A DNA stretch of 64,000 bases from a bacterium (GCA_021785355.1 JAJYFR010000003.1:21509-85508); one strand, 5' to 3'. Counted from the stretch's first letter, positions 1 to 21,769 are shown. Made by a program: numbers and translations. Notes: generated from the sequence alone by a model not told the origin.

Positions 1-705
1 CCTACCAATCAGCCTACTTGTAAATTGTACCCTATGTTTTTCATCCAAAACATTCTGATTTTTAAGATGAGTGACAAGTTCGTTAAAGAAAGAAGAGATT
101 TCTCTATAGAATTGTTCATTTAGAGGATGTATATCAAAACTTTTCCAAAGAATTTCATGAATATTACCTTTATTTGAGTAATCAAAATCTTGAAACCAAT
201 TATTAAAAATCTCTTTTTGTGTATGATTTAGTTTTTGACTAAGCTCTAAAGTACGTATCTTATATTCTTTACTTAAAACAATTATCAATTTATCAGCTTC
301 TTCTGGAATTATAAAATCTATCCCAATAGGTCTATTCTTATTAAATTTTTCATCTTCAAAATTCTTTGTTAATGCAGTAATTTTTAAAATATTATTTTTA
401 TTGACTTTGGATACCCAAAAAAGATTGAACTCAATATTTCTATCATTATCTTGAGCTAGAACATATGTTGCTTTTCTATCTGAATATCCTGGAGCATTCA
501 GTGTCCAACTTATATTTCTTGTTTCTTTAGATAAACTAGGAAAATATAATAATGTTTTTGAAATATCAGTAATACCAAAAATAGAAACTATCTCTTTTGC
601 TATTTCAACTGCTGAATCAAAAGAATGATTTTCATTTGCAAATTTAAGTGCTTCATTTATTCTATCAAAATGTGTTGAATTTTTGTTATTTGTTTGAACT
701 GACAT
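1..705 (-). CDS. Partial CDS running off the window start, product unknown. It is the distal gene of the PLD/SNF2 operon and a possible defence partner protein.
   Basis: An ATG at 705 on the minus strand overlaps the stop of the upstream 686..4168 gene by 20 nt. The frame stays open to position 1 and translates as MSVQTNNKNSTHFDRINEALKFANENHSFDSAVEIAKEIV... No motif I can name with confidence. Confidence 0.4.
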   Translation of the reverse strand, partial: MSVQTNNKNSTHFDRINEALKFANENHSFDSAVEIAKEIVSIFGITDISKTLLYFPSLSKETRNISWTLNAPGYSDRKATYVLAQDNDRNIEFNLFWVSKVNKNNILKITALTKNFEDEKFNKNRPIGIDFIIPEEADKLIIVLSKEYKIRTLELSQKLNHTQKEIFNNWFQDFDYSNKGNIHEILWKSFDIHPLNEQFYREISSFFNELVTHLKNQNVLDEKHRVQFTSRLIGR

Positions 706-3700
706 AGTATAATATTTGTTTTACATTATTTGGTAAAATAGGTTCTTCTTTATTATCTTTAATATCTCTGGCTATAATTATAAGTTTTGTCAAATCATCA
801 TAGTACGGTTTGTTTTCTTTTTGTGATCTTGAAATCTTTCTTACTAATTTTATAATATTTCTTTTTTCATGGTAATTTTTTGTATTAAGCGCCTCATCAA
901 CTATTTCAATATCCTCAATATCATAATTTAATTCACTCATCAATCTAAGTAATTTTATATTCAAACCTTTTGCACTCTCTTCAGCTGGTGTAAAAGTATA
1001 TGCTTCTATATCACTTGCTTTATTAACAATAGACTCTTTCTTTACAGATATATTATCTTTAAATCTTTCATTATCTGTCACTTCTGTTTTCAATATATTT
1101 AATGCTTCTAAATAAGGAATCAAATGTATATTAGCACTATCTTTGTCCATCCCAATAAATTGAGGATATAAATATGTATCATCTTTCAAAAGATGACTTA
1201 ACACCATTACAGGAAAATAGTTTGTTTTATAAGAAGGTATTACTCCCCACTTTCCAAGTGGAATATCATAAATTGACTTTTTATATTCTATTGGAAAATG
1301 ATCACTCTTTTCAAATGATTTAAGATCTAATATAAAATCATCTTCTGCCATAAGTAAGTCACTCTTTTCTTCAATAGTCGTTAACGCTTGAATCCTTTTT
1401 TGCTCGTCATCACTATATAAATCTTTAATACTCTCCACAAAATCAATTGGATTTTCTACTTCACCTAAAACAGATTGATCACTTCCTATTGTATTACTTA
1501 TCATCTCAATCTTACTTTCTAATCTTTTTACTAGTTTAAGATATAGTTCAAGCTTAAATTCAGGCCTCATATTATATATATATACATTCTCATAGTTAGA
1601 TCCTATTCTATTAATTCTTCCATTTCTTTGGATCATTCTTACTGGATTCCAATGTAGGTCATAATTAATAATTATCCCAGCATCTTGTAAATTTTGTCCT
1701 TCTGATAATATGTCTGTAGAAAATAAATACCTAATTTCATCATTATTTAAAGTATAACCCTTTGCTATAGGAGAAAATCGTTTAGCTAAAATCTCCGAAT
1801 CATTCCTGTTTTTTGTTGAAACGAAAGCAGTATTACTTTCATTTAAAAGTCCATTTGATAATTTGAATATATTTTTCTCCAAATAATTTATAGTGTCAGC
1901 AAAATATGAGAATATAAGAACTTTTTCTCCAGCCAATTTTTCTTTATCAAGCTTTTTTAAAAGATCAATTAATGCATTTAACTTTGAATCCGGATTTTTA
2001 AAAAGTTTTAACTCTTTTAGAATAATATCTATAAGTTCAAATTCTTTTTTTATATCGTTAGAGAATGCTTCTAGATTATATTTAGTATTATTTACTTTAT
2101 CTAATACCATATCACTTTCTTCACCTATTATACTTGGATCATCAAGAGATTCATCTATATCTATCATCTTTAAAGCATCTTTTAAAACTTCTAAATCTTT
2201 TACTCCTACTATCTCATGATGTTTTTCTAAAGCTTCATTAAATTGTTCTAATTTTTCCTTATAGTTTCTCAAAGATTTTGATATTGCCTCAACTGATGAC
2301 TCCATTCTCTTAAGATACATTGTCCTGAAAATTCCATATATCCCTCTTTGTTGCTGTAAATCCCTACTTTCGTCTCCAGTTAATTTCAAAGCTTTGATTT
2401 CTTCAACTGTTTTACCGTAATATTTCCTTTGATATAATCTCCATCTATATGGGATAAATCCTAGCATTAAAATAAGTTGAAAAATGAAATAAATGGGAGA
2501 TTCATTTAATAAAGTTTTAATTTTAGTAGAATCTTCAGTAAGCTTATCTAGCTGATCTAATGGATGTTTTAAATCTGTACATTTATCAACAATCTCTTGA
2601 GGATCATATTGATAAAGTTTTTCTACATCAAAAGATACTTTTGCATCAAGATTAAGTATCTTATTATTTAATGATGATTCAAAATTATATTGATAATTTT
2701 CAGGTATTGCTTTAGGAAAACTTTTCTTTTCCTCATCTATAGTTAAGTGTCCATATTCTTTTTCTATACCTTGTCTAGTTCTCCTTACAACTACGCTCCT
2801 AATAATAGGAGCCATTACTTGTTTTATATTCTCATAATCAATTTCTTCTTCCTGTTTACTTTGTCTAGTAATTTTTCTTTGTAAATTCTCAATTGCTTGA
2901 ACAAAATCTACTTGTGATGTTTGACCAGATTTACTATCTCTTATAGTAATTTGTATGATATCTCCTCTTCCTCTCGTTCCTAATAGAATTTGATTAGTAA
3001 GATCCTTAAGTTCATTATTTATAGGAGTAGCTGTTAGGAGTAAAACATGTGCTTGTTTATTATTTTTTATCCAATCCAAAAGTTGTTCATATCTCTTTCC
3101 ATTAGATTTTCTCAAGTTATGAGATTCATCAATAACGAATAATGAGACTGAAGCAATATTATCTAAATTTCTTTCCTTTTGTATTGCTTCACTATTTTGT
3201 AAGGTTATTGGCGTTACATTAGTTAGTCCCTGACCAGTAAGTTCACTTTCCCATTGATCAGTTAAAGATTTTGGACATATAATTGCTACTCTTTTTCTTC
3301 CTTCTTTACTATCAATATATTGTTTAATTACTCCAATCGCAGTTATAGTTTTTCCTAATCCTACTGAATCAGAAAGCATTGCAGTTTTAAATTTATTAAG
3401 TTTGCGTATAAGTTGCTGAACATTCCTTTTTTGAAATTCCATTAATTCGTGTCTTGAATGACTAGTTTCTACTAATTCTACTTCTTCTAACTCTTCTTTA
3501 TATAACTCATACAATGTTTTTATATACATCTCATATGGACTAAATAACATATCTCCAACAGGAGAGTACTCAAGAATTTCCGTAAAATGATGATTCCATT
3601 CTTCTGACTCATTCCAAAATTCATCAAACCAATATAAATGTCCAACCTCTTGGTTATCATTTTTAGGTTCATAGGTTACTATTCTTGAATCATTTTCAAG

Positions 3701-4168
3701 TGCATTAAGCTCAGTATTCTTTGTAAGACCATTTCCTGTAAAATTAGATGATCCTATAATTCCAATCGCATTAGAAGATTCAAAATTACCAAATATATAA
3801 CACTTTGCATGTAGAAATGACTTTTTATATACCCTCACCTCAAGAACTCCTTTTGAGATAAGATCTTTTATTGAGATAATTGTTTCTTTTAATTTTTCAT
3901 TCGGAGTGAGAGCTTCCAAATCTTTGAATATATCTCTTTCTGGATAATCTGGTTCAGGATCATTTAATTGATGACGTGGAATTAAAGGTTCTCTTCCTAT
4001 TAATAAACGGATTTTTTTATAACCTTTTATTTGCTCTAAAAGCATATCAATACTTTGAAGATCCCAATAACCAGTAGCTATCGACAGTTCATCATACTCA
4101 GAAGAAATATTTTTGATTGTATCTAAAAGTAAAACTCTATTGTTATCAATAATTTTAACTATTTTCAT
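686..4168 (-). CDS. Fusion protein with an N-terminal PLD-like (phospholipase D / NucT-type) nuclease domain and a C-terminal SNF2-family helicase.
   Basis: PLD HxK..GSxN motif: LHAKCYIFGNFESSNAIGIIGSSNFTG near residue 120. SNF2/DExH helicase motifs: motif I LSDSVGLGKTITAIGV, motif II VIDESHNLR, motif III LLLTATPINN, motif VI QRNGRINRIGS. 1160 aa. Confidence 0.8.
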   Translation of the reverse strand: MKIVKIIDNNRVLLLDTIKNISSEYDELSIATGYWDLQSIDMLLEQIKGYKKIRLLIGREPLIPRHQLNDPEPDYPERDIFKDLEALTPNEKLKETIISIKDLISKGVLEVRVYKKSFLHAKCYIFGNFESSNAIGIIGSSNFTGNGLTKNTELNALENDSRIVTYEPKNDNQEVGHLYWFDEFWNESEEWNHHFTEILEYSPVGDMLFSPYEMYIKTLYELYKEELEEVELVETSHSRHELMEFQKRNVQQLIRKLNKFKTAMLSDSVGLGKTITAIGVIKQYIDSKEGRKRVAIICPKSLTDQWESELTGQGLTNVTPITLQNSEAIQKERNLDNIASVSLFVIDESHNLRKSNGKRYEQLLDWIKNNKQAHVLLLTATPINNELKDLTNQILLGTRGRGDIIQITIRDSKSGQTSQVDFVQAIENLQRKITRQSKQEEEIDYENIKQVMAPIIRSVVVRRTRQGIEKEYGHLTIDEEKKSFPKAIPENYQYNFESSLNNKILNLDAKVSFDVEKLYQYDPQEIVDKCTDLKHPLDQLDKLTEDSTKIKTLLNESPIYFIFQLILMLGFIPYRWRLYQRKYYGKTVEEIKALKLTGDESRDLQQQRGIYGIFRTMYLKRMESSVEAISKSLRNYKEKLEQFNEALEKHHEIVGVKDLEVLKDALKMIDIDESLDDPSIIGEESDMVLDKVNNTKYNLEAFSNDIKKEFELIDIILKELKLFKNPDSKLNALIDLLKKLDKEKLAGEKVLIFSYFADTINYLEKNIFKLSNGLLNESNTAFVSTKNRNDSEILAKRFSPIAKGYTLNNDEIRYLFSTDILSEGQNLQDAGIIINYDLHWNPVRMIQRNGRINRIGSNYENVYIYNMRPEFKLELYLKLVKRLESKIEMISNTIGSDQSVLGEVENPIDFVESIKDLYSDDEQKRIQALTTIEEKSDLLMAEDDFILDLKSFEKSDHFPIEYKKSIYDIPLGKWGVIPSYKTNYFPVMVLSHLLKDDTYLYPQFIGMDKDSANIHLIPYLEALNILKTEVTDNERFKDNISVKKESIVNKASDIEAYTFTPAEESAKGLNIKLLRLMSELNYDIEDIEIVDEALNTKNYHEKRNIIKLVRKISRSQKENKPYYDDLTKLIIIARDIKDNKEEPILPNNVKQILYYVSSNK

Positions 4169-4172
4169 ATTC

Positions 4173-4391
4173 TTATTTATTATTAACTCCTTTTAATAAA
4201 CTGTCAATTGGTATTTTTAAAGCTCCTGATATTTTTAATAATTTTTCAATACTTGGGTTTTTAATAACTCCATTCTCAAGTTTGGTAATAGTTGTAAATG
4301 GAACAGTAGAACTTTTAGCCAAATCTTCTTGAGTTAAACTTTGTTCTAATCGTATTTTTTTAATATTTTTTCCTATAATACTTAAATCCAT
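4173..4391 (-). CDS. XRE-family (Cro/cI-type) helix-turn-helix transcriptional regulator.
   Basis: 72 aa; HTH region LTQEDLAKSSTVPFTTITKLENG. Sits immediately upstream of the PLD/SNF2 gene on the same strand with a 4-nt gap. Confidence 0.75.
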   Translation of the reverse strand: MDLSIIGKNIKKIRLEQSLTQEDLAKSSTVPFTTITKLENGVIKNPSIEKLLKISGALKIPIDSLLKGVNNK

Positions 4392-4394
4392 ATA

Positions 4395-4429
4395 TTGATA
4401 TCAATCAAGTGTTTATATGATGTTAACAT
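4395..4429. promoter_or_regulatory. Two perfect 10-bp palindromes in the divergent intergenic region, candidate operator sites for the XRE regulator.
   Basis: TTGATATCAA at 4395-4404 and ATGTTAACAT at 4420-4429. Both are perfect palindromes between divergently oriented genes (4391 minus, 4474 plus). Confidence 0.3.
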
Positions 4430-4473
4430 ATTATTAGTTTTGAATAAAGATATATAGTATAATTAACTTAATC

Positions 4474-5052
4474 ATGTGGATAATCATTATAGCCTTTTTA
4501 GCATTAATAGTGTCCTATATAACATTTATTTATACTAGAAAATCATACGAAATATCTGTTTTGCCTTGTATAAAAATATCTTTTTTGAAGCAAGACAGTT
4601 CAGTCTTATGTTATGTAAAGAATATAGGGAGTGGCGTCGCTTTTGATATTGAAATACAAGAACAAATGATGAGATTTGAAAAGGAAAATGTATCTTTTCA
4701 TTTAGAATTAATATTGAAAGATAACAACATGCTTGATATAGGACAAAAATCACTTTTAGATGTTAAAGCGTATGAAATTATTAATGATAAGAAGCAAGTT
4801 AGTCTTCAAGATTTTGTATCAGGAATATTAAAAGAATCTGATTCAAAATTTTTAGTAACATTTAAAAATATTGGAGGAAAAAGATATTATTCAATAATAA
4901 ATTATAAAATAAAAGATGATCATGATTATATAAATATTTCTCCTCCAAAAAAGCTTAGTATTTTCAATGCAATTTTGGATAGTAGAGATAAAACAGATCT
5001 AATAAATATTTATATTGCTTATAAGAAAAGAATTTTTTTATTATCCAAATAA
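4474..5052 (+). CDS. Hypothetical membrane-anchored protein.
   Basis: 192 aa; N-terminal transmembrane helix MWIIIIAFLALIVSYITFIY followed by a soluble domain. No recognisable motif. Confidence 0.4.
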   Translation: MWIIIIAFLALIVSYITFIYTRKSYEISVLPCIKISFLKQDSSVLCYVKNIGSGVAFDIEIQEQMMRFEKENVSFHLELILKDNNMLDIGQKSLLDVKAYEIINDKKQVSLQDFVSGILKESDSKFLVTFKNIGGKRYYSIINYKIKDDHDYINISPPKKLSIFNAILDSRDKTDLINIYIAYKKRIFLLSK

Positions 5053-5100
5053 TAAAAACACTAAACTGTAACTTAACTAATAAATTTATTGAACTAAAAC

Positions 5101-5412
5101 ATGGACTTAAAAACATTTATAAAAAAATCTATTGTTGATATAACAAGTGGAGTAGTAGCATCAAACAATACACCCAATAGTTCTTACATGGTAAGATTAC
5201 AAGATTCTAGTGAAGGATATAATATAGAATTTGATATTGCAGTCATAGTAAAAGAAACTGACAATAACTCCAAAGATAAAAATATAGGAGCACAAATTAG
5301 TGTCTTATCTATGGGGTTGAAAGCTGGAATAAAAAGTGATAAAGATCATAGTAATGAAAATAGCACTGTAACAAGAATTAAATTCAAAGTGGAAGCGATA
5401 AAGACAAGATGA
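5101..5412 (+). CDS. Hypothetical protein.
   Basis: 103-aa ORF. Its stop overlaps the start of the next ORF (ATGA overlap at 5409-5412), suggesting translational coupling. Confidence 0.35.
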   Translation: MDLKTFIKKSIVDITSGVVASNNTPNSSYMVRLQDSSEGYNIEFDIAVIVKETDNNSKDKNIGAQISVLSMGLKAGIKSDKDHSNENSTVTRIKFKVEAIKTR

Positions 5413-6119
5413 GAATGAAGATTCAAAAATATGCAGACTTTGGGACTTCTTCACCATGGTTTGCAAGAATAAATGATATAAACTATATATTAGAACCGAT
5501 TTTTTTATTTAGAACACGACCATCATCTGATGATATAAAAAATGCAGAGATAAAAAAAGAGAAACTGAATAATATAAAATTTGAAGTCATAAAAGAACTA
5601 GGCAAAGCATATTTGAGTTTAGATACATTAAAAAATAAATCGAAAAATTTACCCCAACTCAATATTGAAAATGAATACAATAATATTTATGAATCTTTAT
5701 GGAGGGCATATAAGGATAGATCTTTGTTATTTATAAAAAATCTAGATTACGATATAGGATTCATGTTTAAAAATGATAAAGATTTCAGAAAGGATGGTTT
5801 AATTTTCATAAAAAATAATAATGTAGATGATAAATTCCTAGATCTTATTGAGGAAAAAAGGATTACCTGGCAGAACGAATTATCTGATTTCAGGAATAAT
5901 TTTTTAGATCACTTAAAAACAGATAAATCTCTTCAATACCAACATTTTTACACAATAAAAAACGTAGAGTTAGTCTTTGATCATGTATGGAAGTCCATAG
6001 AAGATATATGGATAATCCTTATTAAAAGTTATTATCCTTTAAATTTTGATTTAAGGGAAATACCTAAAGATAAAAGAGACAAAAATAACCCTATAAAATT
6101 TGAAATTATCAATATTTAA
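5409..6119 (+). CDS. Hypothetical protein.
   Basis: 236-aa ORF coupled to the preceding ORF; no recognisable motif. Confidence 0.4.
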   Translation: MRMKIQKYADFGTSSPWFARINDINYILEPIFLFRTRPSSDDIKNAEIKKEKLNNIKFEVIKELGKAYLSLDTLKNKSKNLPQLNIENEYNNIYESLWRAYKDRSLLFIKNLDYDIGFMFKNDKDFRKDGLIFIKNNNVDDKFLDLIEEKRITWQNELSDFRNNFLDHLKTDKSLQYQHFYTIKNVELVFDHVWKSIEDIWIILIKSYYPLNFDLREIPKDKRDKNNPIKFEIINI

Positions 6120-6246
6120 CAAATACTTGTTAATAATACAAATTAAGCATCAATTTTCTAATTAAGCATACTCTAATTTATCCCTTTACAAAGCTATTTT
6201 GCACCTACTATTTCAAACTATTGACATTACTTTCATATAGTTATAT

Positions 6247-6266
6247 ATTATCCTTATAGGGATAAT
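6247..6266. promoter_or_regulatory. Inverted repeat (7-bp arms, 6-nt spacer) downstream of a sigma70-like promoter, ahead of the recombinase operon.
   Basis: ATTATCC-ttatag-GGATAAT at 6247-6266. TTGACA at 6221-6226, 17-nt spacer, TATATT at 6244-6249. Confidence 0.3.
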
Positions 6267-6291
6267 ATATTAGTTAATAAGGTATAAGAAT

Positions 6292-6465
6292 ATGGCAAGA
6301 TTAAAGGGCAGTAAAAACAAAAAATCAAGTTCAAACGATCGTCCTATCACATCAAATTTATCAACAGAGGAAAGAATCAGATTTCTAGCAAATATCATAG
6401 TATATAGAATCATAGAGGACCAGAATACAGATAGCATTTTATTTAAGAACTTAAATTTAAAATAG
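6292..6465 (+). CDS. Small basic ORF (57 aa) translationally coupled to the serine recombinase gene. Possible recombination directionality factor or excisionase-like accessory protein.
   Basis: ATG at 6292, stop TAG at 6463-6465, recombinase ATG at 6468. Translates as MARLKGSKNKKSSSNDRPITSNLSTEERIRFLANIIVYRIIEDQNTDSILFKNLNLK. AAGGTA ribosome-binding site upstream. Below the 60-aa cutoff of the supplied ORF track. Confidence 0.3.
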   Translation: MARLKGSKNKKSSSNDRPITSNLSTEERIRFLANIIVYRIIEDQNTDSILFKNLNLK

Positions 6466-6467
6466 AT

Positions 6468-8207
6468 ATGGACAATATAAGAATGGAAAACGCTGTAGCT
6501 GCAATTAGAGTATCATCTGTAAAACAAGGAACTGACGGAGATTCTCCTGAAGCTCAAAGAGAACAAATAGAAAGATTTGCTGAAACTCATAATATCAATA
6601 TAAGGAAGATATTTGTTTTTCTAGAATCTGGATCTAAAGAAAAACAACCAGTACAAGAAGCAATTGATTATTGTAAGAATCCTAAGAATAATATTCAACT
6701 TTTTATCATTAAATCCATAGACAGATTCACTAGAGGTGGATCATATTTTTATGATGGTCTTAAAATGCAATTAGACCAAAAAGGAGTAAAACTTATTGAT
6801 ATTTATGGTGTTATAGGAACTCATGATGTAAATACTCTAGAACATCTTGGAGTATCATATAACTGGAGTGTCTACTCCCCTACTAAAAAAGCAGAGATGC
6901 TTGAGGCAGAAAGAGCAAAAGATGAGATGAGAGATATCATGTCAAGAATGATTGGAGCTCAAATAAGGTATATAAGGATGGGATATTGGGTACACAGAGC
7001 CCCATTCGGATATATGAATGAAAAGGTTGAAACATCTAATGGTAAAAGAGTTCTGTTAAAACCAGAACCAACAGAATCTGTATGGATAATTAAAATGTTT
7101 GAGTTAAGAGCAAGAGGCACATTAGATGACCATCAAATTGTAGATACCATAAATTCCATGGGATTCAAAACAAGAATTGAACTTAAAAGAAATCCGAAAA
7201 ACAGAACTCAGATTATAGGACAAAAAGGAGGAAACAAACTTACGTTGAAAGCATTATGGAGATTTATAGAAAATCCTATCTATGCAGGTATACATGTAGG
7301 AAGTTGGAATAAAGGTTTCCCTATAAAAGGCAGATATGCGGGATTAGTTTCATTTGATATCTTTAATAAAGCAAATAAAGGAAAAATCACAATAAGAGAA
7401 GATAATGGTGAGATAAAAGTATACAAAAGAGAACCAAAAGATTATCTAGTTCAAAAAGGAGTCAAAAACTCTGAATTTCCATATAAAAAATATGTTTTGT
7501 GTCCTCATTGTATGAAACCACTGTATGGGAGTGCATCTCGTGGCAAACTAGGTAAATATTATCCTGCTTATCATTGTAATAAGAGAGGTCACTATTTTAG
7601 AGTTCCCAAAAAAGATTTTGATGCTACAATATCAAAGTTTATAAAAAACATAAATCTATCACAAGAATATATTGACGCACTTCAAAAAGTAGTATTAGAG
7701 GAATGGGATAAAAGAAGTAATGAGATCAACAAGGATAAAGTAAACATTGATCAAAGAATCAGTGAACTTAAAATGCAATCAAAGGCAACTGTAGATAAGA
7801 TCAAATACCTTCAATCTGAAGTTGCTATAAAATATCTAGAGGCTGATTTAATAGAGAACGAGAATGAAATTGAAAAGTTAATGGTCAAAAAGGAAAAAGA
7901 GACAAAAGAACCAGTAAATATGGTCAAGGTTATGGAGTACATAAAATACTTTCTGGAACACCTTGATAATTTACTGCTACAAAGCGATAATCCTATAGAT
8001 AGAGCTACCTATTTTAGTGCTATTTTCAACCATGCTCCAACCTATCAAGAATTGATTTCTGGAACACCAGATTTAGCTGATTGTATCAGTCTAAACAAGG
8101 TCTTTATACAGGGTCGTGGACAGCTATCTGGGATGCAGGGACTCGAACCCCAAACTTCAGGACCAAAACCTGGCGTGATGCCATTTCACCACATCCCAAT
8201 ATATTGA
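6468..8207 (+). CDS. Large serine recombinase (resolvase/invertase N-terminal catalytic domain, recombinase domain, zinc ribbon, coiled coil).
   Basis: Catalytic motif AAIRVSSVKQ (nucleophile Ser). Zinc-ribbon cysteines CPHCMKPLYG...YHCNKRGH. Coiled-coil region. The last ~30 codons read through antisense tRNA-Gln sequence, so the true C-terminus and attachment site lie at the gene/tRNA junction. Confidence 0.85.
   Translation: MDNIRMENAVAAIRVSSVKQGTDGDSPEAQREQIERFAETHNINIRKIFVFLESGSKEKQPVQEAIDYCKNPKNNIQLFIIKSIDRFTRGGSYFYDGLKMQLDQKGVKLIDIYGVIGTHDVNTLEHLGVSYNWSVYSPTKKAEMLEAERAKDEMRDIMSRMIGAQIRYIRMGYWVHRAPFGYMNEKVETSNGKRVLLKPEPTESVWIIKMFELRARGTLDDHQIVDTINSMGFKTRIELKRNPKNRTQIIGQKGGNKLTLKALWRFIENPIYAGIHVGSWNKGFPIKGRYAGLVSFDIFNKANKGKITIREDNGEIKVYKREPKDYLVQKGVKNSEFPYKKYVLCPHCMKPLYGSASRGKLGKYYPAYHCNKRGHYFRVPKKDFDATISKFIKNINLSQEYIDALQKVVLEEWDKRSNEINKDKVNIDQRISELKMQSKATVDKIKYLQSEVAIKYLEADLIENENEIEKLMVKKEKETKEPVNMVKVMEYIKYFLEHLDNLLLQSDNPIDRATYFSAIFNHAPTYQELISGTPDLADCISLNKVFIQGRGQLSGMQGLEPQTSGPKPGVMPFHHIPIY
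8118..8188 (-). tRNA. tRNA-Gln (anticodon TTG), no encoded CCA.
   Basis: Reverse complement TGGGATGTGGTGAAATGGCATCACGCCAGGTTTTGGTCCTGAAGTTTGGGGTTCGAGTCCCTGCATCCCAG. U1:A72 pair and G73 discriminator typical of bacterial tRNA-Gln. Anticodon loop TTTTGGT. Confidence 0.7.
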
Positions 8208-8209
8208 AA

Positions 8210-8285
8210 TGGAGCGGAAAACGGGATTCAAACCCGCGACCTTATCCTTGGCAAGGATATGCTCTATCAACTGAGCTACTTCCGC
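8210..8285 (-). tRNA. tRNA-Gly (anticodon GCC), CCA encoded.
   Basis: Reverse complement GCGGAAGTAGCTCAGTTGATAGAGCATATCCTTGCCAAGGATAAGGTCGCGGGTTTGAATCCCGTTTTCCGCTCCA. Anticodon loop TTGCCAA. Confidence 0.8.
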
Positions 8286-8293
8286 ATAAAACT

Positions 8294-8366
8294 TGCCACA
8301 AGTGGGGGTCGAACCCACGACACAAGGCTCTTCAGGCCTCTGCTCTACCAACTGAGCTACCGTGGC
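8294..8366 (-). tRNA. tRNA-Phe (anticodon GAA).
   Basis: Reverse complement GCCACGGTAGCTCAGTTGGTAGAGCAGAGGCCTGAAGAGCCTTGTGTCGTGGGTTCGACCCCCACTTGTGGCA. Anticodon loop CTGAAGA. Confidence 0.8.
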
Positions 8367-8376
8367 ATATTACAAT

Positions 8377-8448
8377 GGGCAGTACAGGGATCGGACCTGT
8401 GACATCTACGGTGTAAACGTAGCGCTCTACCAGCTGAGCTAACTGCCC
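8377..8448 (-). tRNA. tRNA-Val (anticodon TAC).
   Basis: Reverse complement GGGCAGTTAGCTCAGCTGGTAGAGCGCTACGTTTACACCGTAGATGTCACAGGTCCGATCCCTGTACTGCCCA. Anticodon loop TTTACAC. Confidence 0.8.
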
Positions 8449-8472
8449 TTTTTTATATATAAAGGTCTTATT

Positions 8473-8557
8473 TTTTTTAGAATGGGCAGAAGAGGAGTTG
8501 AACCTCCACACCAATAAATTAGGCACAACCACCTCAAGGTTGCGTGTCTACCATTCC
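8473..8557 (-). tRNA. tRNA-Leu (anticodon GAG), class II with a long variable arm.
   Basis: Reverse complement GGGCAGGTGGTGGAATGGTAGACACGCAACCTTGAGGTGGTTG...GGAGGTTCAACTCCTCTTCTGCCCA. Anticodon loop TTGAGGT. Confidence 0.75.
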
Positions 8558-8622
8558 ACCACCTGCCCAATTTATGTAAGACATCGTATGATATTATATT
8601 GTGTAATGAGGATTTTTGCAAA

Positions 8623-8708
8623 TGCTAGAAAGAGGATTCGAACCTCCACATCTATAATAAGATACAATGTTCTGAACATTGCGTGTCTACCATTTCACCA
8701 TTCTAGCT
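8623..8708 (-). tRNA. tRNA-Leu (anticodon CAG), class II with a long variable arm.
   Basis: Reverse complement GCTAGAATGGTGAAATGGTAGACACGCAATGTTCAGAACATTG...GGAGGTTCGAATCCTCTTTCTAGCA. Anticodon loop TTCAGAA. Confidence 0.75.
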
Positions 8709-10272
8709 AATTGTACCATTTATAAGAATATAAAAACCTATCATAAGGATAAGAAACAAAATTGAAGTTTAAATTTTTAATAGTTTTGTTAGCTACATAT
8801 ACAAAATTATTACTGTATAAAAATATTGCAGGATTAATATTTTGTATACTTTGTGCTATTAGAGAATACGTTTCTTTTCTGTCATTTATATTAAGGGTAG
8901 ATACACCTACTAAAAGTAGTCTATCAATTTCGCTATTATTAAGCTGAGAGATATTTTGATTACTTTTAGAATACCATAAAGAAAACATATTGGGATCAAT
9001 ACTTGTATTTACAGATGTTAGAATTCCATCATAATTTTTTGATTTTATTATACTATCAATATTTATTGTATTTTCTGGCACAAATATTGCATTTACTCCT
9101 ATATTTGACCAATTTTGTTTTATATAATTTACTAAAGATTGAGGTATTGTATTGATATAGTATATTTTTAAGTTATATTGATTTCCAGAGAGTAAATCTG
9201 CTGCTTTTTTTTGATTAAAATTAAATGTTGTAGTTTTAGGATCAAATGCCCAAGATGTTGAAGGAATAGATGTATACATAGGACTTACTGTACCTCTCAT
9301 TATATTCGTTGATATATATCTAGGAGAAAGAGAGTAAGAGAGTGCATTCCTCAGTGTTATAGAAGTTACTTTATTAAGATTAAAAAATAGAGCAACATAA
9401 TTTGTAACTAGTGGATAAGTATATACATTTAGATTATGGTAAGAATATATATTATGATATTTACCTCCAATATATGCTCCATCTATTTGATCTCTTTTAA
9501 GATTTTTTATTATCTCTTTATAGTTATTGAATATTTGAATTACAAAATATTTAAAATGAGGTTTACCATAGAAGTAATATTTATTTTCAGTAAGTACTAT
9601 TTTGTTATTAGTAAGATAATCCATTTTATATTCACCAGAGCTTATTATATTTTGAGTATTTAGAATATAGTTACTACCAAATGGTACTATAAAAAAGTTT
9701 ATATCCTGATAAAAGGTAACATCCAATCTTTTTAATAAAAATTCTACTTTGTATTTAGATATCCTATATATAGATATATTTGAAAGCATTGACGAAGGAA
9801 AGTATTCTTTTTCAAAATTAAAAGAATAGACAATATCTTTAGCTGTTATATTTACTCCATTAGAAAAATAAAAATGTTTATGCAGAGATATTACATATTT
9901 TGTATAATTATCTTCTTCTTTAATAGATTTTGCTACAATATTTTCTATACTCCCATTAGATTTTTCATAAATTAATCTTGAGAACATTAATCTATTTACA
10001 TCTTTAATAAAGGTTTGATTATTATTTTTTGAATATGGGTTATAGTAAGTTGTATTAGCGACAACACCTTCTATATAGCTTTGTGATGCAGATAATTTCA
10101 AAGAATAGAATCCGTTTTTAAAGAGGATAAAGAAAAGTACAATAATGATTATGAGGGAAAGTATTATATATGAGGCAGGAGATTTCCTTTTTATATAACT
10201 AGGATAATCCCACATAAATTCTCTAAAATTTAAAGCACTCTTTAAACTTAGCATCTTACTTACCTTTTGCAA
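8707..10272 (-). CDS. Membrane-anchored extracytoplasmic protein, possibly a family-5 ABC-type solute-binding-like protein (weak call).
   Basis: 521 aa; N-terminal transmembrane anchor YIILSLIIIIVLFFILF; size and composition consistent with a peptide/oligosaccharide binding protein. No firm motif. Confidence 0.3.
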   Translation of the reverse strand: MQKVSKMLSLKSALNFREFMWDYPSYIKRKSPASYIILSLIIIIVLFFILFKNGFYSLKLSASQSYIEGVVANTTYYNPYSKNNNQTFIKDVNRLMFSRLIYEKSNGSIENIVAKSIKEEDNYTKYVISLHKHFYFSNGVNITAKDIVYSFNFEKEYFPSSMLSNISIYRISKYKVEFLLKRLDVTFYQDINFFIVPFGSNYILNTQNIISSGEYKMDYLTNNKIVLTENKYYFYGKPHFKYFVIQIFNNYKEIIKNLKRDQIDGAYIGGKYHNIYSYHNLNVYTYPLVTNYVALFFNLNKVTSITLRNALSYSLSPRYISTNIMRGTVSPMYTSIPSTSWAFDPKTTTFNFNQKKAADLLSGNQYNLKIYYINTIPQSLVNYIKQNWSNIGVNAIFVPENTINIDSIIKSKNYDGILTSVNTSIDPNMFSLWYSKSNQNISQLNNSEIDRLLLVGVSTLNINDRKETYSLIAQSIQNINPAIFLYSNNFVYVANKTIKNLNFNFVSYPYDRFLYSYKWYN

Positions 10273-10492
10273 GGATTAATGAAAGAATTACTGCTGTAAC
10301 AAAAATAATTGCAGCGATAATTGTAAAATACAGCAAGAATTTTTGAAGACCTCTTCTTGACCTAAAACTCTCACCTCCTCCACCTCCTCCAAAAGTTGCA
10401 GAAAGAGAAGTACCATTTGTTTGAAGAATTATCACTATAATTAAAATAGCTGATATTATAGAGAGTAATATATCTAGTTGATAAGGTTTCAT
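10256..10492 (-). CDS. secG: Preprotein translocase subunit SecG.
   Basis: 78 aa with two transmembrane helices flanking a glycine-rich loop: LSATFGGGGGGESFRSRRGL...TIIAAIIFVTAVIL. This matches the SecG GASATLFG..G...R pattern. Confidence 0.55.
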   Translation of the reverse strand: MKPYQLDILLSIISAILIIVIILQTNGTSLSATFGGGGGGESFRSRRGLQKFLLYFTIIAAIIFVTAVILSLILAKGK

Positions 10493-10513
10493 ATATAAGT
10501 TAATATTAAAAAA

Positions 10514-12430
10514 ATGAAGAGAATAAAAATAAAAATCATACTGGTTATACTTTTTTTAGTATTTATCATTTATCCTCAAGGAGTATTCGCTTCTAGCTCT
10601 CCTTTTAGTGTAGATTATAACATTTTGTATAAAATTGCAAAAGATGGCACTGCAACTGTATCTTATAATATAAATATATCTAATCTAACTCAGAATATAT
10701 ATGCATCTTCTTACTCTCTATCATTAACTAATACAGATATAACTAATGTTACGGTAACAGATAGTAATGGATCTAGTCTTCCTTTTAATACAGTAAAAAA
10801 TGCAAATTCTACTGTTATAATAACTACACTTCCACAATCGCAATATGGTTATGGAACAGGAGATAATTGGACAATCACTTTTAATACTTCTCAGATATCA
10901 AAAATTCAAGGAAAGCTTTTGAATATAGCAATTCCAGGATTTCCACAAAAATCTTTAATACATTCTGTAAAAACAGAAGTTGATATTCCGAAAAGTTTTG
11001 GAAATATAAATTTTTCATCACCCAATAATCCTACTATAGTTTCAGGTCAAAACTACAATAGAGTATATTACTCTAGTACTGATTCATATACTACTCAGGG
11101 TATATTATTAGTTATGGGAAATTATCAACTTTTTTCTTTTAAATTTCATTATCAATTGATTAACTACAACTCCCTATTCTCTCAAAAATATCAAATTGTA
11201 ATTCCTGCAGATTTTAAAAATCAAGTAGTAACTTTTTCTCAAATATCCCCTACTCCAACTAGCAGTTTTATTGATAAGGATGGAAATTATATTTTATCCT
11301 ATACTCTATCACCTAAAGAAAATATTAATGTTAGTATCAGAGGGGAATCAAAAGTTTTTTCAACTTACAATATACTTTCTTCAACCCCTATAACTCAAAA
11401 AGCATTAACTCCGAGTGAATATAAAATATATACCTCTCAACAACCATACTGGCAAGTTTTAAATCCTTTTATTCACAATTTAGCTATGAAGATTACAAAA
11501 GGAGATAGTACAAATCTTTCTAAAGCTTTAAGTATAGAAAATTATGTAGCAACTCATTTAACATATAATCAGAAAGCTATATTAGATCCTAATAGACAAA
11601 GACTAGGAGCTATAAAAGCATTAGAAGAGAAGAATAATGCTATTTGTCAGGAATATGTAGATGTATTTGTAACGCTTGCAAGATCTGCAGGACTACCTGC
11701 AAGGATGATTGCAGGATATGGAGATCCTCCTGATATTAATGTAAACCCACTACCTCCAGATATACTTCATGCATGGGTACAATTCTATTCCAATAGATTT
11801 GGATGGGTAAATTCAGATCCTACTTGGCAATCAACTTCTGGAAATCTTAATTTTTTTGGGAATGTGGGTTCTAGTCATTTTGCTTTAGTAAGATATGGAA
11901 TAAATTCTGAAAATCCTCCATTAATACTTTCTTTTGTAAAAGAGAAAAATCCTCAAAACAATATTAATATAGAGGCAACAACAAATAAATTTGTACAGAA
12001 TCCTAATTTTATACTAAAAATACCAAATTTTAATAATTTAGTTTCTGGGTTTAAAAATTATATAGATATAACAATACAAAATACAGGTAATCAAGTATTA
12101 AGAGGAGGGAATATAGAGATTCTTTCTAAAAATAATAAAATAATCTCTACTTTTAGTATTAAGAATATTGCAATATTCCCATACACTTCACAAAGTGTAA
12201 AAATACCAATTCAATCAAAAAGTCTTACACAATCATATAGTGAAATAATAAATATTAAAGCACAATTATCAAACTACCAAAACGATAATATTTCTAAAGA
12301 GGGATCGACTGTTATACAGTTCAAACCATTCTTTGTTTCAGGAATTATTCCTTGGATTATAATATTTATCCTCTTCATTTTTTCAATAATAATTGTAGAT
12401 TTATTCTTTAGGCTTAAAAGAAAAAAGTAA
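10514..12430 (+). CDS. Secreted, C-terminally membrane-anchored protein with a transglutaminase-like cysteine protease domain.
   Basis: Signal peptide. Transglutaminase core: Cys in NNAICQEYVDVFVTLARSAGLPARMIAGY, His in LHAWVQFY, Asp in VNSDPTW. C-terminal transmembrane helix plus RLKRKK. Confidence 0.6.
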   Translation: MKRIKIKIILVILFLVFIIYPQGVFASSSPFSVDYNILYKIAKDGTATVSYNINISNLTQNIYASSYSLSLTNTDITNVTVTDSNGSSLPFNTVKNANSTVIITTLPQSQYGYGTGDNWTITFNTSQISKIQGKLLNIAIPGFPQKSLIHSVKTEVDIPKSFGNINFSSPNNPTIVSGQNYNRVYYSSTDSYTTQGILLVMGNYQLFSFKFHYQLINYNSLFSQKYQIVIPADFKNQVVTFSQISPTPTSSFIDKDGNYILSYTLSPKENINVSIRGESKVFSTYNILSSTPITQKALTPSEYKIYTSQQPYWQVLNPFIHNLAMKITKGDSTNLSKALSIENYVATHLTYNQKAILDPNRQRLGAIKALEEKNNAICQEYVDVFVTLARSAGLPARMIAGYGDPPDINVNPLPPDILHAWVQFYSNRFGWVNSDPTWQSTSGNLNFFGNVGSSHFALVRYGINSENPPLILSFVKEKNPQNNINIEATTNKFVQNPNFILKIPNFNNLVSGFKNYIDITIQNTGNQVLRGGNIEILSKNNKIISTFSIKNIAIFPYTSQSVKIPIQSKSLTQSYSEIINIKAQLSNYQNDNISKEGSTVIQFKPFFVSGIIPWIIIFILFIFSIIIVDLFFRLKRKK

Positions 12431-12482
12431 GAATGGCTTAAAACTAGCATTTTAATTCTTTTTTATCAATTATATAGGTCAC

Positions 12483-12511
12483 TTGACAAGGATTTTTAAT
12501 ATACATAAAAT
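12483..12511 (+). promoter_or_regulatory. Sigma70-like promoter upstream of the 12538 gene.
   Basis: TTGACA at 12483-12488, 17-nt spacer, TAAAAT at 12506-12511. Confidence 0.35.
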
Positions 12512-12537
12512 GGAAGTATCTTAGACATAAAAAATTA

Positions 12538-21125: not shown

Positions 21126-21769
21126 TAATTACTTTTTGTGTAAATTATATTTTTTCCGTTTATATATTTTATATTAGAAATGAAACCGAATTTATTCAAT
21201 GGCCAAAATACAAAAGAAGCAATACCTTTTATTTCATTTCTAGGAACAAAGCCCCAGAAACGAGAATCAGAACTATTTCCTCTATTATCTCCCATCACAA
21301 AATAATCACCCTTTGGTACTTTAATAACGACATTATTTGCAAGAAAACTTCCACCTTCAGTTTTTATATTACTATTTATATATGCACTCTCATTCAATAA
21401 ATTTCCATTTATATAAACCTTACCATTTTTTAATTCTAAAGTTTCTCCTGGAGTAGCTATTATTCTTTTTATATATTCTTCAGATGGAGTATGCTGAAAT
21501 ATAATAACTTGACCTTGTTTTGGATTAGAATATGAAAGTGATATTTTATTTGTAAAAAGATATTCTCCATTAACAAAATTTGGCATCATACTTTCTCCAA
21601 CAACTATATGAGGTGATGCAATAAATAAATATACTATTAACGCAATAGCTAATGTTACAGATACTGTTTCTATAAAATCTATTACAAATATACGTACAAT
21701 TTTAAGAATATAATCTTTATACTTATTTTTACTCGTCTTAACTTTACTTTTAGTTTTCTTTTTTGCCAT
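21125..21769 (-). CDS. lepB: Signal peptidase I (S26 family), paralog 1.
   Basis: GESMMPNF (catalytic Ser), KRIIATPGE (catalytic Lys), GDNRGNSSDSRFWGFV. Confidence 0.8.
   Translation of the reverse strand: MAKKKTKSKVKTSKNKYKDYILKIVRIFVIDFIETVSVTLAIALIVYLFIASPHIVVGESMMPNFVNGEYLFTNKISLSYSNPKQGQVIIFQHTPSEEYIKRIIATPGETLELKNGKVYINGNLLNESAYINSNIKTEGGSFLANNVVIKVPKGDYFVMGDNRGNSSDSRFWGFVPRNEIKGIASFVFWPLNKFGFISNIKYINGKNIIYTKSN

What the first reader, a model, noticed from the sequence alone, without database searches (positions are those of the whole stretch)
686..4168. PLD-nuclease/SNF2-helicase fusion operonic with an unknown partner: candidate core of an undescribed defence system
The protein carries a phospholipase-D/NucT-type HxK..GSxN nuclease motif in its first 150 residues, then a full SNF2/DExH helicase core (GKT, DESH, TATP, QxxGRxxR). 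Its stop overlaps by 20 nt the start of a downstream gene that leaves the window (1..705). A dedicated XRE regulator sits 4 nt upstream. Separate SNF2 helicase and PLD nuclease proteins are components of DISARM-type systems. A single-polypeptide fusion with a coupled unknown partner under XRE control on a mobile island is not an arrangement I can assign to a named system.
Basis: partly seen in the sequence, partly recalled or inferred. Interest (0 to 1): 0.75.

Follow-up and report, generated by a model that had tools for sequence, protein, structure and literature searches.

The report
Two-gene helicase-nuclease restriction-modification module
The fusion protein is real, but its "unknown partner" is a DNA adenine methyltransferase with its own sequence-reading domain, so the pair looks like a widespread restriction-modification system that was noted in silico in 2018 and 2023 and has never been tested.

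Summary
ORF 686..4168(-) encodes a 1160-aa protein with one N-terminal HKD/PLD nuclease motif and a complete SNF2 ATPase core. It overlaps the next gene by 20 nt and lies 4 nt after an XRE gene.

The partner, read in full from an identical contig, is a 1101-aa Eco57I/MmeI-type N6-adenine methyltransferase with a TaqI-like target-recognition domain.

- The pair is conserved. 53 of 54 evaluable loci of the helicase clade have this methyltransferase directly downstream. In 5 methyltransferase-centred look-ups a large gene lay directly upstream: an annotated PLD+SNF2 protein in 4, an unannotated contig-end fragment in the fifth.
- The two proteins co-diverge (Spearman rho 0.75), while the recognition domain is hypervariable.
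- The pair is the main cargo of small lactic-acid-bacterial plasmids. One of these carries a spare recognition-domain cassette and an invertase.
- DISARM, BREX and BR/Hma core genes are absent.

The same architecture was described in silico on Lactococcus plasmid pLd8 in 2018 and listed again in 2023. No experimental test was found.

Best reading: a two-subunit, ATP-dependent, Type ISP/III-like restriction-modification system whose nuclease is the HKD domain. I rate it a new member of a known but untested kind, with moderate interest.

The parts
686..4168 (-). Restriction subunit: 1160-aa HKD(PLD)-nuclease / SNF2-ATPase fusion
   Evidence: ORF. Pfam PLDc_2, RE_NgoFVII, SNF2-rel_dom, ResIII, Helicase_C. 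PADLOC best model 'HKD+Snf2' 5e-51. PDB sequence hits are Snf2, Swr1, DDM1 and RapA ATPases.
3677..4108 (-). HKD/PLD nuclease domain (aa 21-164), with a single HxK...GSxN...NxE motif (H120, K122, G139-N142, N151, E153)
   Evidence: The residues are invariant in A1. The motif is present in 52 of 54 full-length helicases from related loci.
1601..3451 (-). SNF2 ATPase core: lobe 1 (aa 240-389: GLGKT, DESH, TATP), a helical insertion of about 340 aa, and lobe 2 (aa 729-856: QRNGRINR)
   Evidence: Motifs are intact in 46-54 of 54 related helicases.
689..1471 (-). Family-specific C-terminal region of the helicase (aa 900-1160), role unknown; candidate contact surface for the methyltransferase (inference)
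1..705 (-). First 235 aa of the partner, which leaves the window. The full protein is 1101 aa: N-terminal family-specific domain, helical linker, gamma-class N6-adenine methyltransferase (DPACGSG, NPPY), TaqI-like recognition domain
   Evidence: The full gene is read on the identical contig L001 13464-16769. Pfam Eco57I 3e-37, N6_Mtase, TaqI_C 2.6e-14, MmeI_Mtase. PADLOC REase_MTase_IIG 2.5e-160. The N-terminal domain has no Pfam model. It was found in only 175 library representatives, and nearly always at the N-terminus of the listed hits, most of which are about 1000-1150 aa.
686..705 (-). 20-nt overlap of the helicase stop with the methyltransferase start (translational coupling)
   Evidence: Overlaps of 1 to 62 nt recur in most related loci, and exactly 20 nt in L004, L006, L007 and L009.
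4173..4391 (-). 72-aa XRE/HTH_3 regulator, 4 nt upstream of the helicase gene; candidate controller (C-protein-like)
   Evidence: Pfam HTH_3 3e-15. PADLOC HTH_VI 3e-13 and 'Control_protein' 3e-9. A homologous HTH gene occupies the same position in L004 and in 14 Bacteroidota-type loci.
4392..4473 (.). Divergent intergenic region holding the presumed promoter. The palindrome ATTGATATCAAT (4394..4405) abuts the XRE start codon.
   Evidence: Palindromes of this size occur 48 times in the window, as expected by chance, so this is only a candidate operator.
6468..8207 (+). Large serine recombinase at the edge of the shared block (context, not part of the system)
   Evidence: Pfam Resolvase and Recombinase. 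PHROG integrase 1e-38. Large serine recombinases also neighbour the module in 9 other loci.
8127..8707 (-). tRNA cluster (Gln, Gly, Phe, Val, Leu, Leu). The shared block ends at about 8371, at the 5' acceptor stem of tRNA-Phe.

Best explanation
A two-subunit, ATP-dependent restriction-modification system built like a split Type ISP or Type III enzyme.

Subunit M is the 1101-aa partner. It reads a short, probably asymmetric DNA site with its TaqI-like recognition domain and methylates an adenine there, which marks host DNA as self.

Subunit R is the 1160-aa protein in the window. It is made in step with M through the overlapping stop and start codons. I propose that it docks on M at unmethylated sites.

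The proposed cycle has four steps:
1. The SNF2 motor hydrolyses ATP to translocate along double-stranded DNA.
2. Each R chain carries only one HKD motif, so two R chains must bring their N-terminal domains together to form one metal-independent active site.
3. Two converging complexes, or two bound sites, are therefore needed before DNA is cut.
4. That two-site requirement would protect freshly replicated, one-strand-methylated host DNA.

The XRE protein would set the timing or level of expression after transfer to a new host.

Shown here: the domain content, the intact catalytic motifs, the obligate pairing and co-divergence of the two genes, the hypervariable recognition domain, and carriage on plasmids.

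Inferred: the physical complex, ATP-driven translocation, cleavage through HKD dimerisation, one-strand methylation, and the regulatory role of XRE.
For: 1. Domains and motifs. HKD plus SNF2 in R. Eco57I/N6_Mtase/TaqI_C with DPACGSG and NPPY in M.

2. Obligate pairing.
- The methyltransferase lies directly downstream on the same strand in 53 of 54 evaluable loci whose helicase is at least 34% identical, mostly with overlapping stop and start.
- In 5 look-ups starting from distant methyltransferases carrying the same N-terminal domain, a large gene lay directly upstream. It was an annotated PLD+SNF2 protein in 4; the fifth was a 915-aa contig-end product without annotation.

3. Co-divergence. 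Similarity matrices of the two proteins correlate, Spearman 0.75, with 0 of 300 label permutations reaching that value.

4. Behaviour typical of restriction-modification.
- The recognition domain has a median identity of 16%, against 41-61% for the rest of M.
- A silent TaqI_C cassette and an Mpi invertase lie next to the pair on pJM1F.
- RhuM, Bro-N or Fic genes are inserted between or beside the two genes. GmrSD, KAP and AbiEi genes are neighbours.
- The distribution is patchy, with 50-60% identity across phyla.

5. HKD is the only nuclease kept throughout. It is present in 52 of 54 helicases. The candidate D...DxK triad in M's N-terminal domain becomes R/R/H in the Bacteroidota-type clade, lacks the first Asp in the Lactococcus protein, and reads E92/N94 in the window protein.

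6. An independent in-silico proposal of the same division of labour exists for pLd8 orf33/orf34 (PMC6098607). [quoted passage not shown]

7. From my own knowledge, not tested here: single-HKD nucleases such as Nuc and BfiI form their active site across a dimer, SNF2 ATPases are double-strand translocases, and Type III and ISP enzymes tolerate one-strand methylation because they need two sites.
Against: - No experiment on this family was found, so no methylation motif, cleavage or phage protection has been shown.
- The subclade nearest the window protein conserves D76, D92-x-K94, E117, D118, D130 and D138 in M's N-terminal domain, in a strand-helix order compatible with a PD-(D/E)xK nuclease. 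Some members may therefore carry a second nuclease, and M might restrict on its own.
- Cj0031, which Milman et al. call a homologue of such methyltransferases, restricts phage without a helicase (PMC4889913).
- The R-M contact was not modelled.
- More distant HKD-SNF2 relatives (29-31% identity) sit beside housekeeping genes without a methyltransferase (L064, L066). The fusion therefore does not need a methyltransferase in every lineage.
Confidence: 0.6

Rival explanations
1. The partner is a self-sufficient Type IIG/IIL restriction-methylation enzyme that cuts with its own N-terminal PD-(D/E)xK-like domain. The HKD-SNF2 protein is an accessory second layer, for example processive degradation after the first cut or a back-up against anti-restriction. 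It is not the system's nuclease.
For: - PADLOC files the partner under REase_MTase_IIG at 2.5e-160.
- The nearest 80 homologues conserve D76...D92-x-K94 with EcoRV-like spacing on a beta hairpin of a confident model.
- Cj0031 restricts phage alone.
Against: - No Pfam nuclease model matches even at E=10.
- The triad is not kept across the paired family. It is R-x-R and H in Bacteroidota-type loci, S76 in Lactococcus, and E92/N94 in the window protein.
- van Mastrigt et al. found no restriction domain in the pLd8 partner.
- The N-terminal domain occurs only in this family. In 4 of 5 look-ups the gene directly upstream was an annotated PLD+SNF2 helicase, and the fifth was an unannotated contig-end fragment. 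This fits a coupling domain better.
Confidence: 0.17
2. A BREX/DISARM-like exclusion system. The PglX-like methyltransferase marks self DNA and senses unmodified sites. The SNF2-HKD protein blocks phage replication, or acts on host DNA as an abortive response, without classical site-linked cleavage.
For: - The partner matches PglX models (5.6e-33) and DrmMI models (5.5e-17), and PglX/BrxX structures by profile.
- The helicase matches DrmD, BrxHII and HmaA models.
- HmaA alone protects against T4 (PMC11232893).
- The Aravind-lab papers consider suicide action for HKD-helicase effectors.
Against: - None of the defining extra components is present within 10 kb on either side: PglZ, BrxC, DrmA/DrmB, DUF499, DUF3780.
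- Small plasmids carry only the two genes.
- An intact HKD nuclease argues for DNA cutting.
Confidence: 0.13
3. Not defence. The pair is an epigenetic regulator (a phase-variable methyltransferase) coupled to a repair or remodelling helicase of the host chromosome.
For: - Type IIG-like methyltransferases such as Cj0031 alter gene expression.
- Distant HKD-SNF2 relatives lie next to housekeeping genes.
- SNF2 proteins such as RapA have housekeeping roles.
Against: - The distribution is patchy and indicates horizontal transfer.
- The pair is the main cargo of plasmids of 11.8 and 15.4 kb.
- Neighbours are defence genes and recombinases.
- Recognition-domain hypervariability and the conserved nuclease motif fit restriction better.
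Confidence: 0.05

Closest known systems
pLd8 orf33/orf34-type putative restriction-modification operon of lactic acid bacteria (van Mastrigt et al. 2018, PMC6098607). The same context is listed by Milman et al. 2023 (PMC9881135).
   Same: - Same two-gene architecture: a PLD+SNF2+Helicase_C protein followed by a REBASE 'type IIG' N6-adenine methyltransferase with a TaqI_C recognition domain and no recognisable nuclease.
- I did not retrieve pLd8 itself. The plasmid pairs I compared (L. cremoris pJM1F, L. plantarum plas2) match both window proteins: 36.6% identity for the helicase, and 34% over the full length (E 3e-179) for the methyltransferase. Their stop and start codons overlap.
   Different: - The window copy is chromosomal or island-borne in an uncultured, 26% G+C organism.
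- It has its own XRE gene and no recognition-domain shufflon.
- It is only 34-37% identical to the plasmid pairs.
- The family has no name and no experimental test.
Type ISP restriction-modification enzymes (LlaGI, LlaBIII)
   Same: Same order of modules: nuclease, ATP motor, linker, gamma-class adenine methyltransferase, recognition domain. The expected logic is also the same: translocation from an asymmetric site, cleavage on meeting a second enzyme, one-strand methylation. This comparison rests on my own knowledge of Type ISP enzymes.
   Different: - It is split into two polypeptides.
- The nuclease is a metal-independent HKD domain instead of an Mrr-type PD-(D/E)xK domain.
- The motor is SNF2-type rather than HsdR-like.
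Type III restriction-modification (EcoP15I Mod/Res)
   Same: Two subunits: a methyltransferase that reads the site, and a helicase-nuclease that needs ATP and two sites.
   Different: In Type III, Res carries a C-terminal PD-(D/E)xK nuclease and Mod is a beta-class methyltransferase. Here the nuclease is an N-terminal HKD domain and the methyltransferase is of the Eco57I/MmeI gamma class.
Class 1 DISARM (DrmA, DrmB, DrmC, DrmD, DrmMI)
   Same: It combines an SNF2 helicase, a PLD nuclease and a large type IIG-like adenine methyltransferase. DrmD is the second-best PADLOC hit (8e-39).
   Different: - The core DrmA and DrmB (DUF1998) are absent.
- PLD and SNF2 are fused here.
- The DrmD score is far below the curated cut-off (162 against 610 bits).
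Hma and 'BREX-related' (BR) systems; Type-2 BR has an HKD-Swi2/Snf2 helicase (PMC12839542, PMC11232893)
   Same: The helicase architecture is the same as in Type-2 BR: an N-terminal HKD domain plus Swi2/Snf2, paired with an N6 methyltransferase. The proposed logic is also restriction-modification-like. HmaA was shown to protect against T4.
   Different: No DUF499 ATPase and no DUF3780 are present. I have not seen what type the BR methyltransferase is; the one here is of the Eco57I/MmeI/TaqI_C type.
Type IIG/IIL enzymes (MmeI, Eco57I, DrdV, Cj0031) and BREX PglX
   Same: The partner shares their methyltransferase and recognition-domain core, and their habit of swapping or inverting recognition domains.
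   Different: Those enzymes carry their own nuclease (MmeI, Eco57I) or work inside BREX (PglX). Here the N-terminal domain is family-specific, with no confirmed nuclease, and an HKD-SNF2 partner accompanies it almost always.

Membership tests
PLD-SNF2 + type IIG-like methyltransferase operon (pLd8 orf33/orf34 kind) | Large protein with one N-terminal HKD motif followed by a complete SNF2 ATPase core | tested here: met
PLD-SNF2 + type IIG-like methyltransferase operon (pLd8 orf33/orf34 kind) | An Eco57I-type N6-adenine methyltransferase with a TaqI_C recognition domain lies immediately downstream on the same strand | tested here: met
   The arrangement is conserved in 53 of 54 evaluable loci.
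PLD-SNF2 + type IIG-like methyltransferase operon (pLd8 orf33/orf34 kind) | Sequence homology of both proteins to the pairs on lactic-acid-bacterial plasmids | tested here: met
   Helicase 36.6% identity over 90% of its length. Methyltransferase 34% over the full length, E 3e-179. Same Pfam domains. pLd8 itself was not retrieved; its description matches.
PLD-SNF2 + type IIG-like methyltransferase operon (pLd8 orf33/orf34 kind) | Restriction and modification activity | not testable with these tools
   No experimental paper was found.
Class 1 DISARM | DrmA helicase and DrmB (DUF1998) core genes in the locus | tested here: not met
   No such domains among the genes within 10 kb on either side.
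Class 1 DISARM | The helicase reaches the curated DrmD model cut-off | tested here: not met
   NF038317 gives 161.7 bits against a cut-off of 610. NF038318 gives 78 bits against 950.
BREX (any type) | PglZ phosphatase and BrxC/PglY ATPase | tested here: not met
   Absent from the window's first 8 kb and from 10 kb beyond it on L001. The partner resembles PglX only in the methyltransferase core.
BR Type-2 / Hma | DUF499 ATPase (HmaC) and, for Type-2, DUF3780 | tested here: not met
   None in the locus. Small plasmids carry only the two genes.
BR Type-2 / Hma | Helicase with an N-terminal HKD domain plus Swi2/Snf2 | tested here: met
Type ISP restriction-modification | All modules in one polypeptide, with an Mrr-type nuclease | tested here: not met
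   Two ORFs with a 20-nt overlap, and the nuclease is an HKD domain.
Type III restriction-modification | Res with a C-terminal PD-(D/E)xK nuclease, and a beta-class Mod | tested here: not met
   The helicase C-terminal region (aa 900-1160) shows no nuclease fold. The methyltransferase is of the Eco57I/MmeI gamma class.
Type IIG/IIL restriction-modification (single-chain nuclease-methyltransferase) | Methyltransferase and recognition domain in one chain | tested here: met
Type IIG/IIL restriction-modification (single-chain nuclease-methyltransferase) | A nuclease domain in the same chain | tested here: inconclusive
   - The model is confident (pLDDT 88.5) and its strand-helix order is compatible with a restriction-nuclease fold.
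- The candidate D...DxK triad is conserved only in the nearest subclade. It is changed in the window protein (E92, N94) and in other clades.
SauUSI-type Type IV enzymes (PLD + helicase) | A C-terminal DUF3427 reader of modified DNA, and no cognate methyltransferase | tested here: not met
   No DUF3427 hit, and a cognate methyltransferase is conserved.

The most novel reading that the evidence does not exclude
The family is a distinct, formally unrecognised class of ATP-dependent restriction-modification enzyme. It would be a 'split Type ISP' in which an SNF2 chromatin-remodeller-type motor carries a half-site HKD nuclease. Dimerisation of two HKD domains when two translocating complexes meet would serve as the two-site licence for cutting. 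The family-specific N-terminal domain of the methyltransferase would couple site recognition to the motor. That domain was found in only 175 representatives among 1.84 billion, nearly always at the N-terminus of the listed hits.
Probability: 0.35. Interest if true: 0.55.

Novelty: new member of a known kind. Interest (0 to 1): 0.35.

Why it matters
If the proposed mechanism holds, this would be a compact two-gene restriction system that couples a metal-independent nuclease to an SNF2 double-strand DNA translocase.

- The family is common. At least 591 of about 185,600 species-representative genomes encode a relative of the helicase, and the pair occurs on dairy-starter plasmids.
- Current defence-finding tools would report only a 'type IIG' gene and miss the helicase-nuclease.
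- A test would settle how a nuclease-less 'type IIG' methyltransferase restricts DNA.
- It would add a well-defined class to restriction-modification nomenclature.
- It would explain a phage-resistance trait on industrial Lactococcus plasmids.

For this window specifically, the finding is an ordinary member of that family.

Tried and rejected

3. C-box or operator. The 12-bp palindrome next to the XRE start is at chance frequency for this AT-rich DNA. The promoter and terminator scan was at background.

4. Recognition-domain shufflon in this locus. No long inverted repeats were found.

5. Phage carriage. Only 11 relatives turned up in 2.9 million viral contigs, so the module is not typically phage-borne.

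6. Named-system membership. DISARM, BREX, BR/Hma, Dpd, Zorya ZorD and the NCBIfam 'phospholipase D-like anti-phage protein' all fall far below curated cut-offs or lack their core genes.

7. Organism name. The exact-sequence look-up returned no names.

8. Island limits. Only the recombinase and tRNA side could be examined; the other end lies beyond the 10 kb that could be fetched.

9. Rfam found only tRNAs. PHROGs, Pfam and PADLOC gave no usable match for the small ORFs at 4474..6465; the only hits were two weak ones far below cut-off.

Full report
OBSERVATION. The ORF at 686..4168 on the minus strand encodes 1160 aa. Pfam places a PLD-like domain at aa 21-164 (PLDc_2 6e-9; NgoFVII-type PLD nuclease 2e-7). 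It places SNF2-related, ResIII and DEAD matches at aa 240-389, and Helicase_C at aa 729-856. They are invariant or nearly so in alignments of 13 and 74 homologues. There is only one HKD motif per chain. The best matches among solved structures are Snf2, Swr1, DDM1 and RapA ATPases. The stop codon lies 20 nt inside the next ORF (ATG at 705), and the 72-aa XRE/HTH_3 gene 4173..4391 ends 4 nt before the helicase start.

THE PARTNER. An exact-sequence look-up found the helicase on 21 contigs. Locus L001 (GCA_027424915.1, DAIBWQ010000002.1) is 100% identical to window 1..14168 and continues past the window's start. There the downstream gene is complete at 1101 aa. It carries Eco57I methylase (3e-37), N6_Mtase, MmeI_Mtase and a TaqI-like C-terminal specificity domain (2.6e-14), plus a weak MmeI helical-spacer match at aa 231-308. 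PADLOC files it under 'type IIG restriction enzyme-methyltransferase' (2.5e-160), with weaker matches to PglX and DrmMI. The catalytic DPACGSG and NPPY motifs are present. By sequence it resembles BseCI, CamA, TaqI, PglX/BrxX, MmeI and DrdV, but only in the methyltransferase and recognition-domain part. The 'unknown partner' is therefore a site-specific adenine methyltransferase with its own recognition domain.

IS THE PAIR A UNIT? The evidence falls into five groups.

- Spread. The helicase family is large: 5372 proteins with E up to 1e-10 among 8000 scored. Full-length relatives at 50-60% identity occur in unrelated phyla including Omnitrophota, Margulisiibacteriota, Patescibacteria, Clostridiales and Methylacidiphilales. 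A scan of one genome per species found at least 591 relatives, and 80 loci were fetched.
- Helicase-centred linkage. 59 loci have a helicase at least 34% identical. Five end inside or just after the helicase. Of the other 54, 53 carry a homologue of the methyltransferase directly downstream on the same strand, usually with overlapping stop and start (exactly 20 nt in four of them). The remaining locus has a Fic gene and then the contig ends.
- Methyltransferase-centred linkage. Starting from five distant methyltransferases (26-31% identity in the N-terminal domain), a large gene always lay directly upstream. It was an annotated PLD+SNF2 protein in four. The fifth was an unannotated 915-aa product at a contig end.
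- Co-divergence and variable specificity. Pairwise similarities of the two proteins correlate across 41 loci, Spearman 0.75, with 0 of 300 permutations as high. Within the methyltransferase the recognition domain is hypervariable (median identity 16%), against 41% for the N-terminal domain, 61% for the linker and 46% for the catalytic domain.
- Plasmids and neighbours. On L. cremoris plasmid pJM1F (15.4 kb) and an 11.8-kb L. plantarum plasmid the two genes are the main cargo. pJM1F also carries an inverted silent TaqI_C cassette and an Mpi-family invertase, which together form a specificity shufflon. Genes that typically lodge inside restriction loci (RhuM, Bro-N, Fic) are inserted between or beside the two genes in some loci. 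GmrSD, KAP NTPase, an SMC/AAA_15 ATPase, AbiEi and large serine recombinases are recurrent neighbours.

All of this is the behaviour of a mobile restriction-modification unit.

REGULATOR AND CONTEXT. The XRE protein matches generic HTH models and, more weakly, restriction 'control protein' models. A homologous HTH gene sits in the same place in the closest relative L004 and in 14 Bacteroidota-type loci, where it overlaps the helicase start. Other loci have different regulators or none. XRE is thus a recurrent accessory, not a defining part. A 12-bp palindrome abuts its start codon, but palindromes of that size are at chance frequency here. Window 1..8371 recurs at 99.95% identity in a second contig whose flank differs. 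The break falls in the 5' acceptor stem of tRNA-Phe, next to a large serine recombinase whose ORF runs antisense into tRNA-Gln. This fits a mobile island, but the other end was out of reach and base composition is uninformative.

MECHANISM (inferred). M reads an asymmetric site and methylates one adenine. R is made in stoichiometric step with M and docks on M at unmodified sites. Its SNF2 motor translocates double-stranded DNA using ATP. Because each R chain has half an HKD site, cutting needs two R chains to meet. This gives the two-site licence that lets Type III and Type ISP enzymes live with one-strand methylation. The shown parts are the domains, the motifs, the pairing, the co-divergence, the variable specificity and the plasmid carriage. 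The complex, the translocation, the dimer-dependent cutting and the control by XRE are inferences from what is established for single-HKD nucleases, SNF2 translocases, and Type III and ISP enzymes.

COMPARISON WITH WHAT IS KNOWN. None of the named multi-gene systems fits.

- DISARM. DrmA and DrmB are absent, and the DrmD score is 162 bits against a cut-off of 610.
- BREX. PglZ and BrxC are absent.
- BR Type-2 and Hma. DUF499 and DUF3780 are absent, and the methyltransferase here is of the Eco57I/MmeI/TaqI_C type.
- Other curated helicase-nuclease models. Dpd, Zorya ZorD and the NCBIfam PLD anti-phage protein all score far below their curated cut-offs.

It is also not Type ISP, which is one chain with an Mrr-type nuclease. 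It is not Type III, whose Res has a C-terminal PD-(D/E)xK nuclease and whose Mod is beta-class.

The arrangement has nevertheless been described. On L. lactis plasmid pLd8, orf33 (PLD+SNF2+helicase) and orf34 (a REBASE 'type IIG' methyltransferase with TaqI_C and no restriction domain) were reported in 2018. Those authors proposed that the PLD domain supplies restriction, and they compared the pair with class 1 DISARM (PMC6098607). Milman et al. 2023 list Cj0031-like type II genes with an adjacent PLD+SNF gene as targets of programmed inversions (PMC9881135). [quoted passage not shown] I found no experimental test of the two-gene family.

VERDICT. The feature is real, and the defence reading is well supported. 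It is a new and fairly divergent member of a widespread, previously noticed, unnamed and untested kind of ATP-dependent restriction-modification system. It is not the core of an undescribed system. Interest is moderate at 0.35. The window copy itself is ordinary, but the family is a good target for a first biochemical characterisation.

Noticed in passing
window 424..432 (codons 92-94 of the partner gene, minus strand): Among its 80 nearest homologues, the window's methyltransferase is the only one with both E92 and N94 (GAG, AAT). 75 of the others have D92 and 78 have K94. Each is a single-base difference, and the same sequence occurs on many contigs, so it is not a read error.
   Followed up: partly
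window 4474..6465 (+): Four small ORFs (192, 103, 236 and 57 aa) lie between the XRE gene and the recombinase. They have no usable match in Pfam, PADLOC, NCBIfam or PHROGs; the only hits were two weak ones far below cut-off. The 192-aa product starts with a hydrophobic helix. They travel with the module in all three contexts seen.
   Followed up: partly
window 8127..8371: The recombinase ORF (6468..8207) runs antisense through tRNA-Gln. The block shared with a second contig ends inside the 5' acceptor stem of tRNA-Phe. In that other contig (L002) the tRNA-Phe copy has a non-matching 5' strand, is not called as a tRNA, and is preceded by a tRNA-Ala.
   Followed up: partly
L001 16796..17895 (outside the window, just beyond its start): A DUF3644 gene (PADLOC candidate PDC-S19) lies directly after the methyltransferase. 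It is split into two overlapping ORFs that match model positions 1-94 and 94-343. This points to a frameshift or pseudogene.
   Followed up: no
L001 17999..19555: A second small HTH_3 gene (67 aa) is followed by a 444-aa ORF with no match anywhere. This HTH is homologous to the HTH gene that precedes the helicase in Bacteroidota-type loci. The pair could be another regulator-effector unit.
   Followed up: no
L001 19720..19803 and 21163..21246: An 84-nt direct repeat (93% identity) brackets a 413-aa orphan gene. The repeat contains the start of a 69-aa ORF. A short assembly contig (L003) ends within this first repeat copy (L001 position 19749).
   Followed up: no
L084 (pJM1F) 8763..10230: An inverted silent TaqI_C cassette and an Mpi-family invertase lie next to the plasmid-borne homologous pair. 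This indicates switchable specificity in that member.
   Followed up: partly
L064, L066 (Fimbriimonadales, Tumidithrix): More distant HKD-SNF2 relatives (29-31% identity) lie beside housekeeping genes (aspartate/ornithine carbamoyltransferase, sigma-70, Ile-tRNA ligase) with no methyltransferase nearby. Others at the same distance are paired with Eco57I-type methyltransferases of 1300-1800 aa, upstream or downstream.
   Followed up: partly
L053 6525..8254 and 12630..14161: ORF pairs of the same sizes (378 aa with 129/130 aa) lie on both sides of the helicase. The downstream 378-aa ORF is a Fic protein. Whether the two pairs are duplicates was not checked.
   Followed up: no
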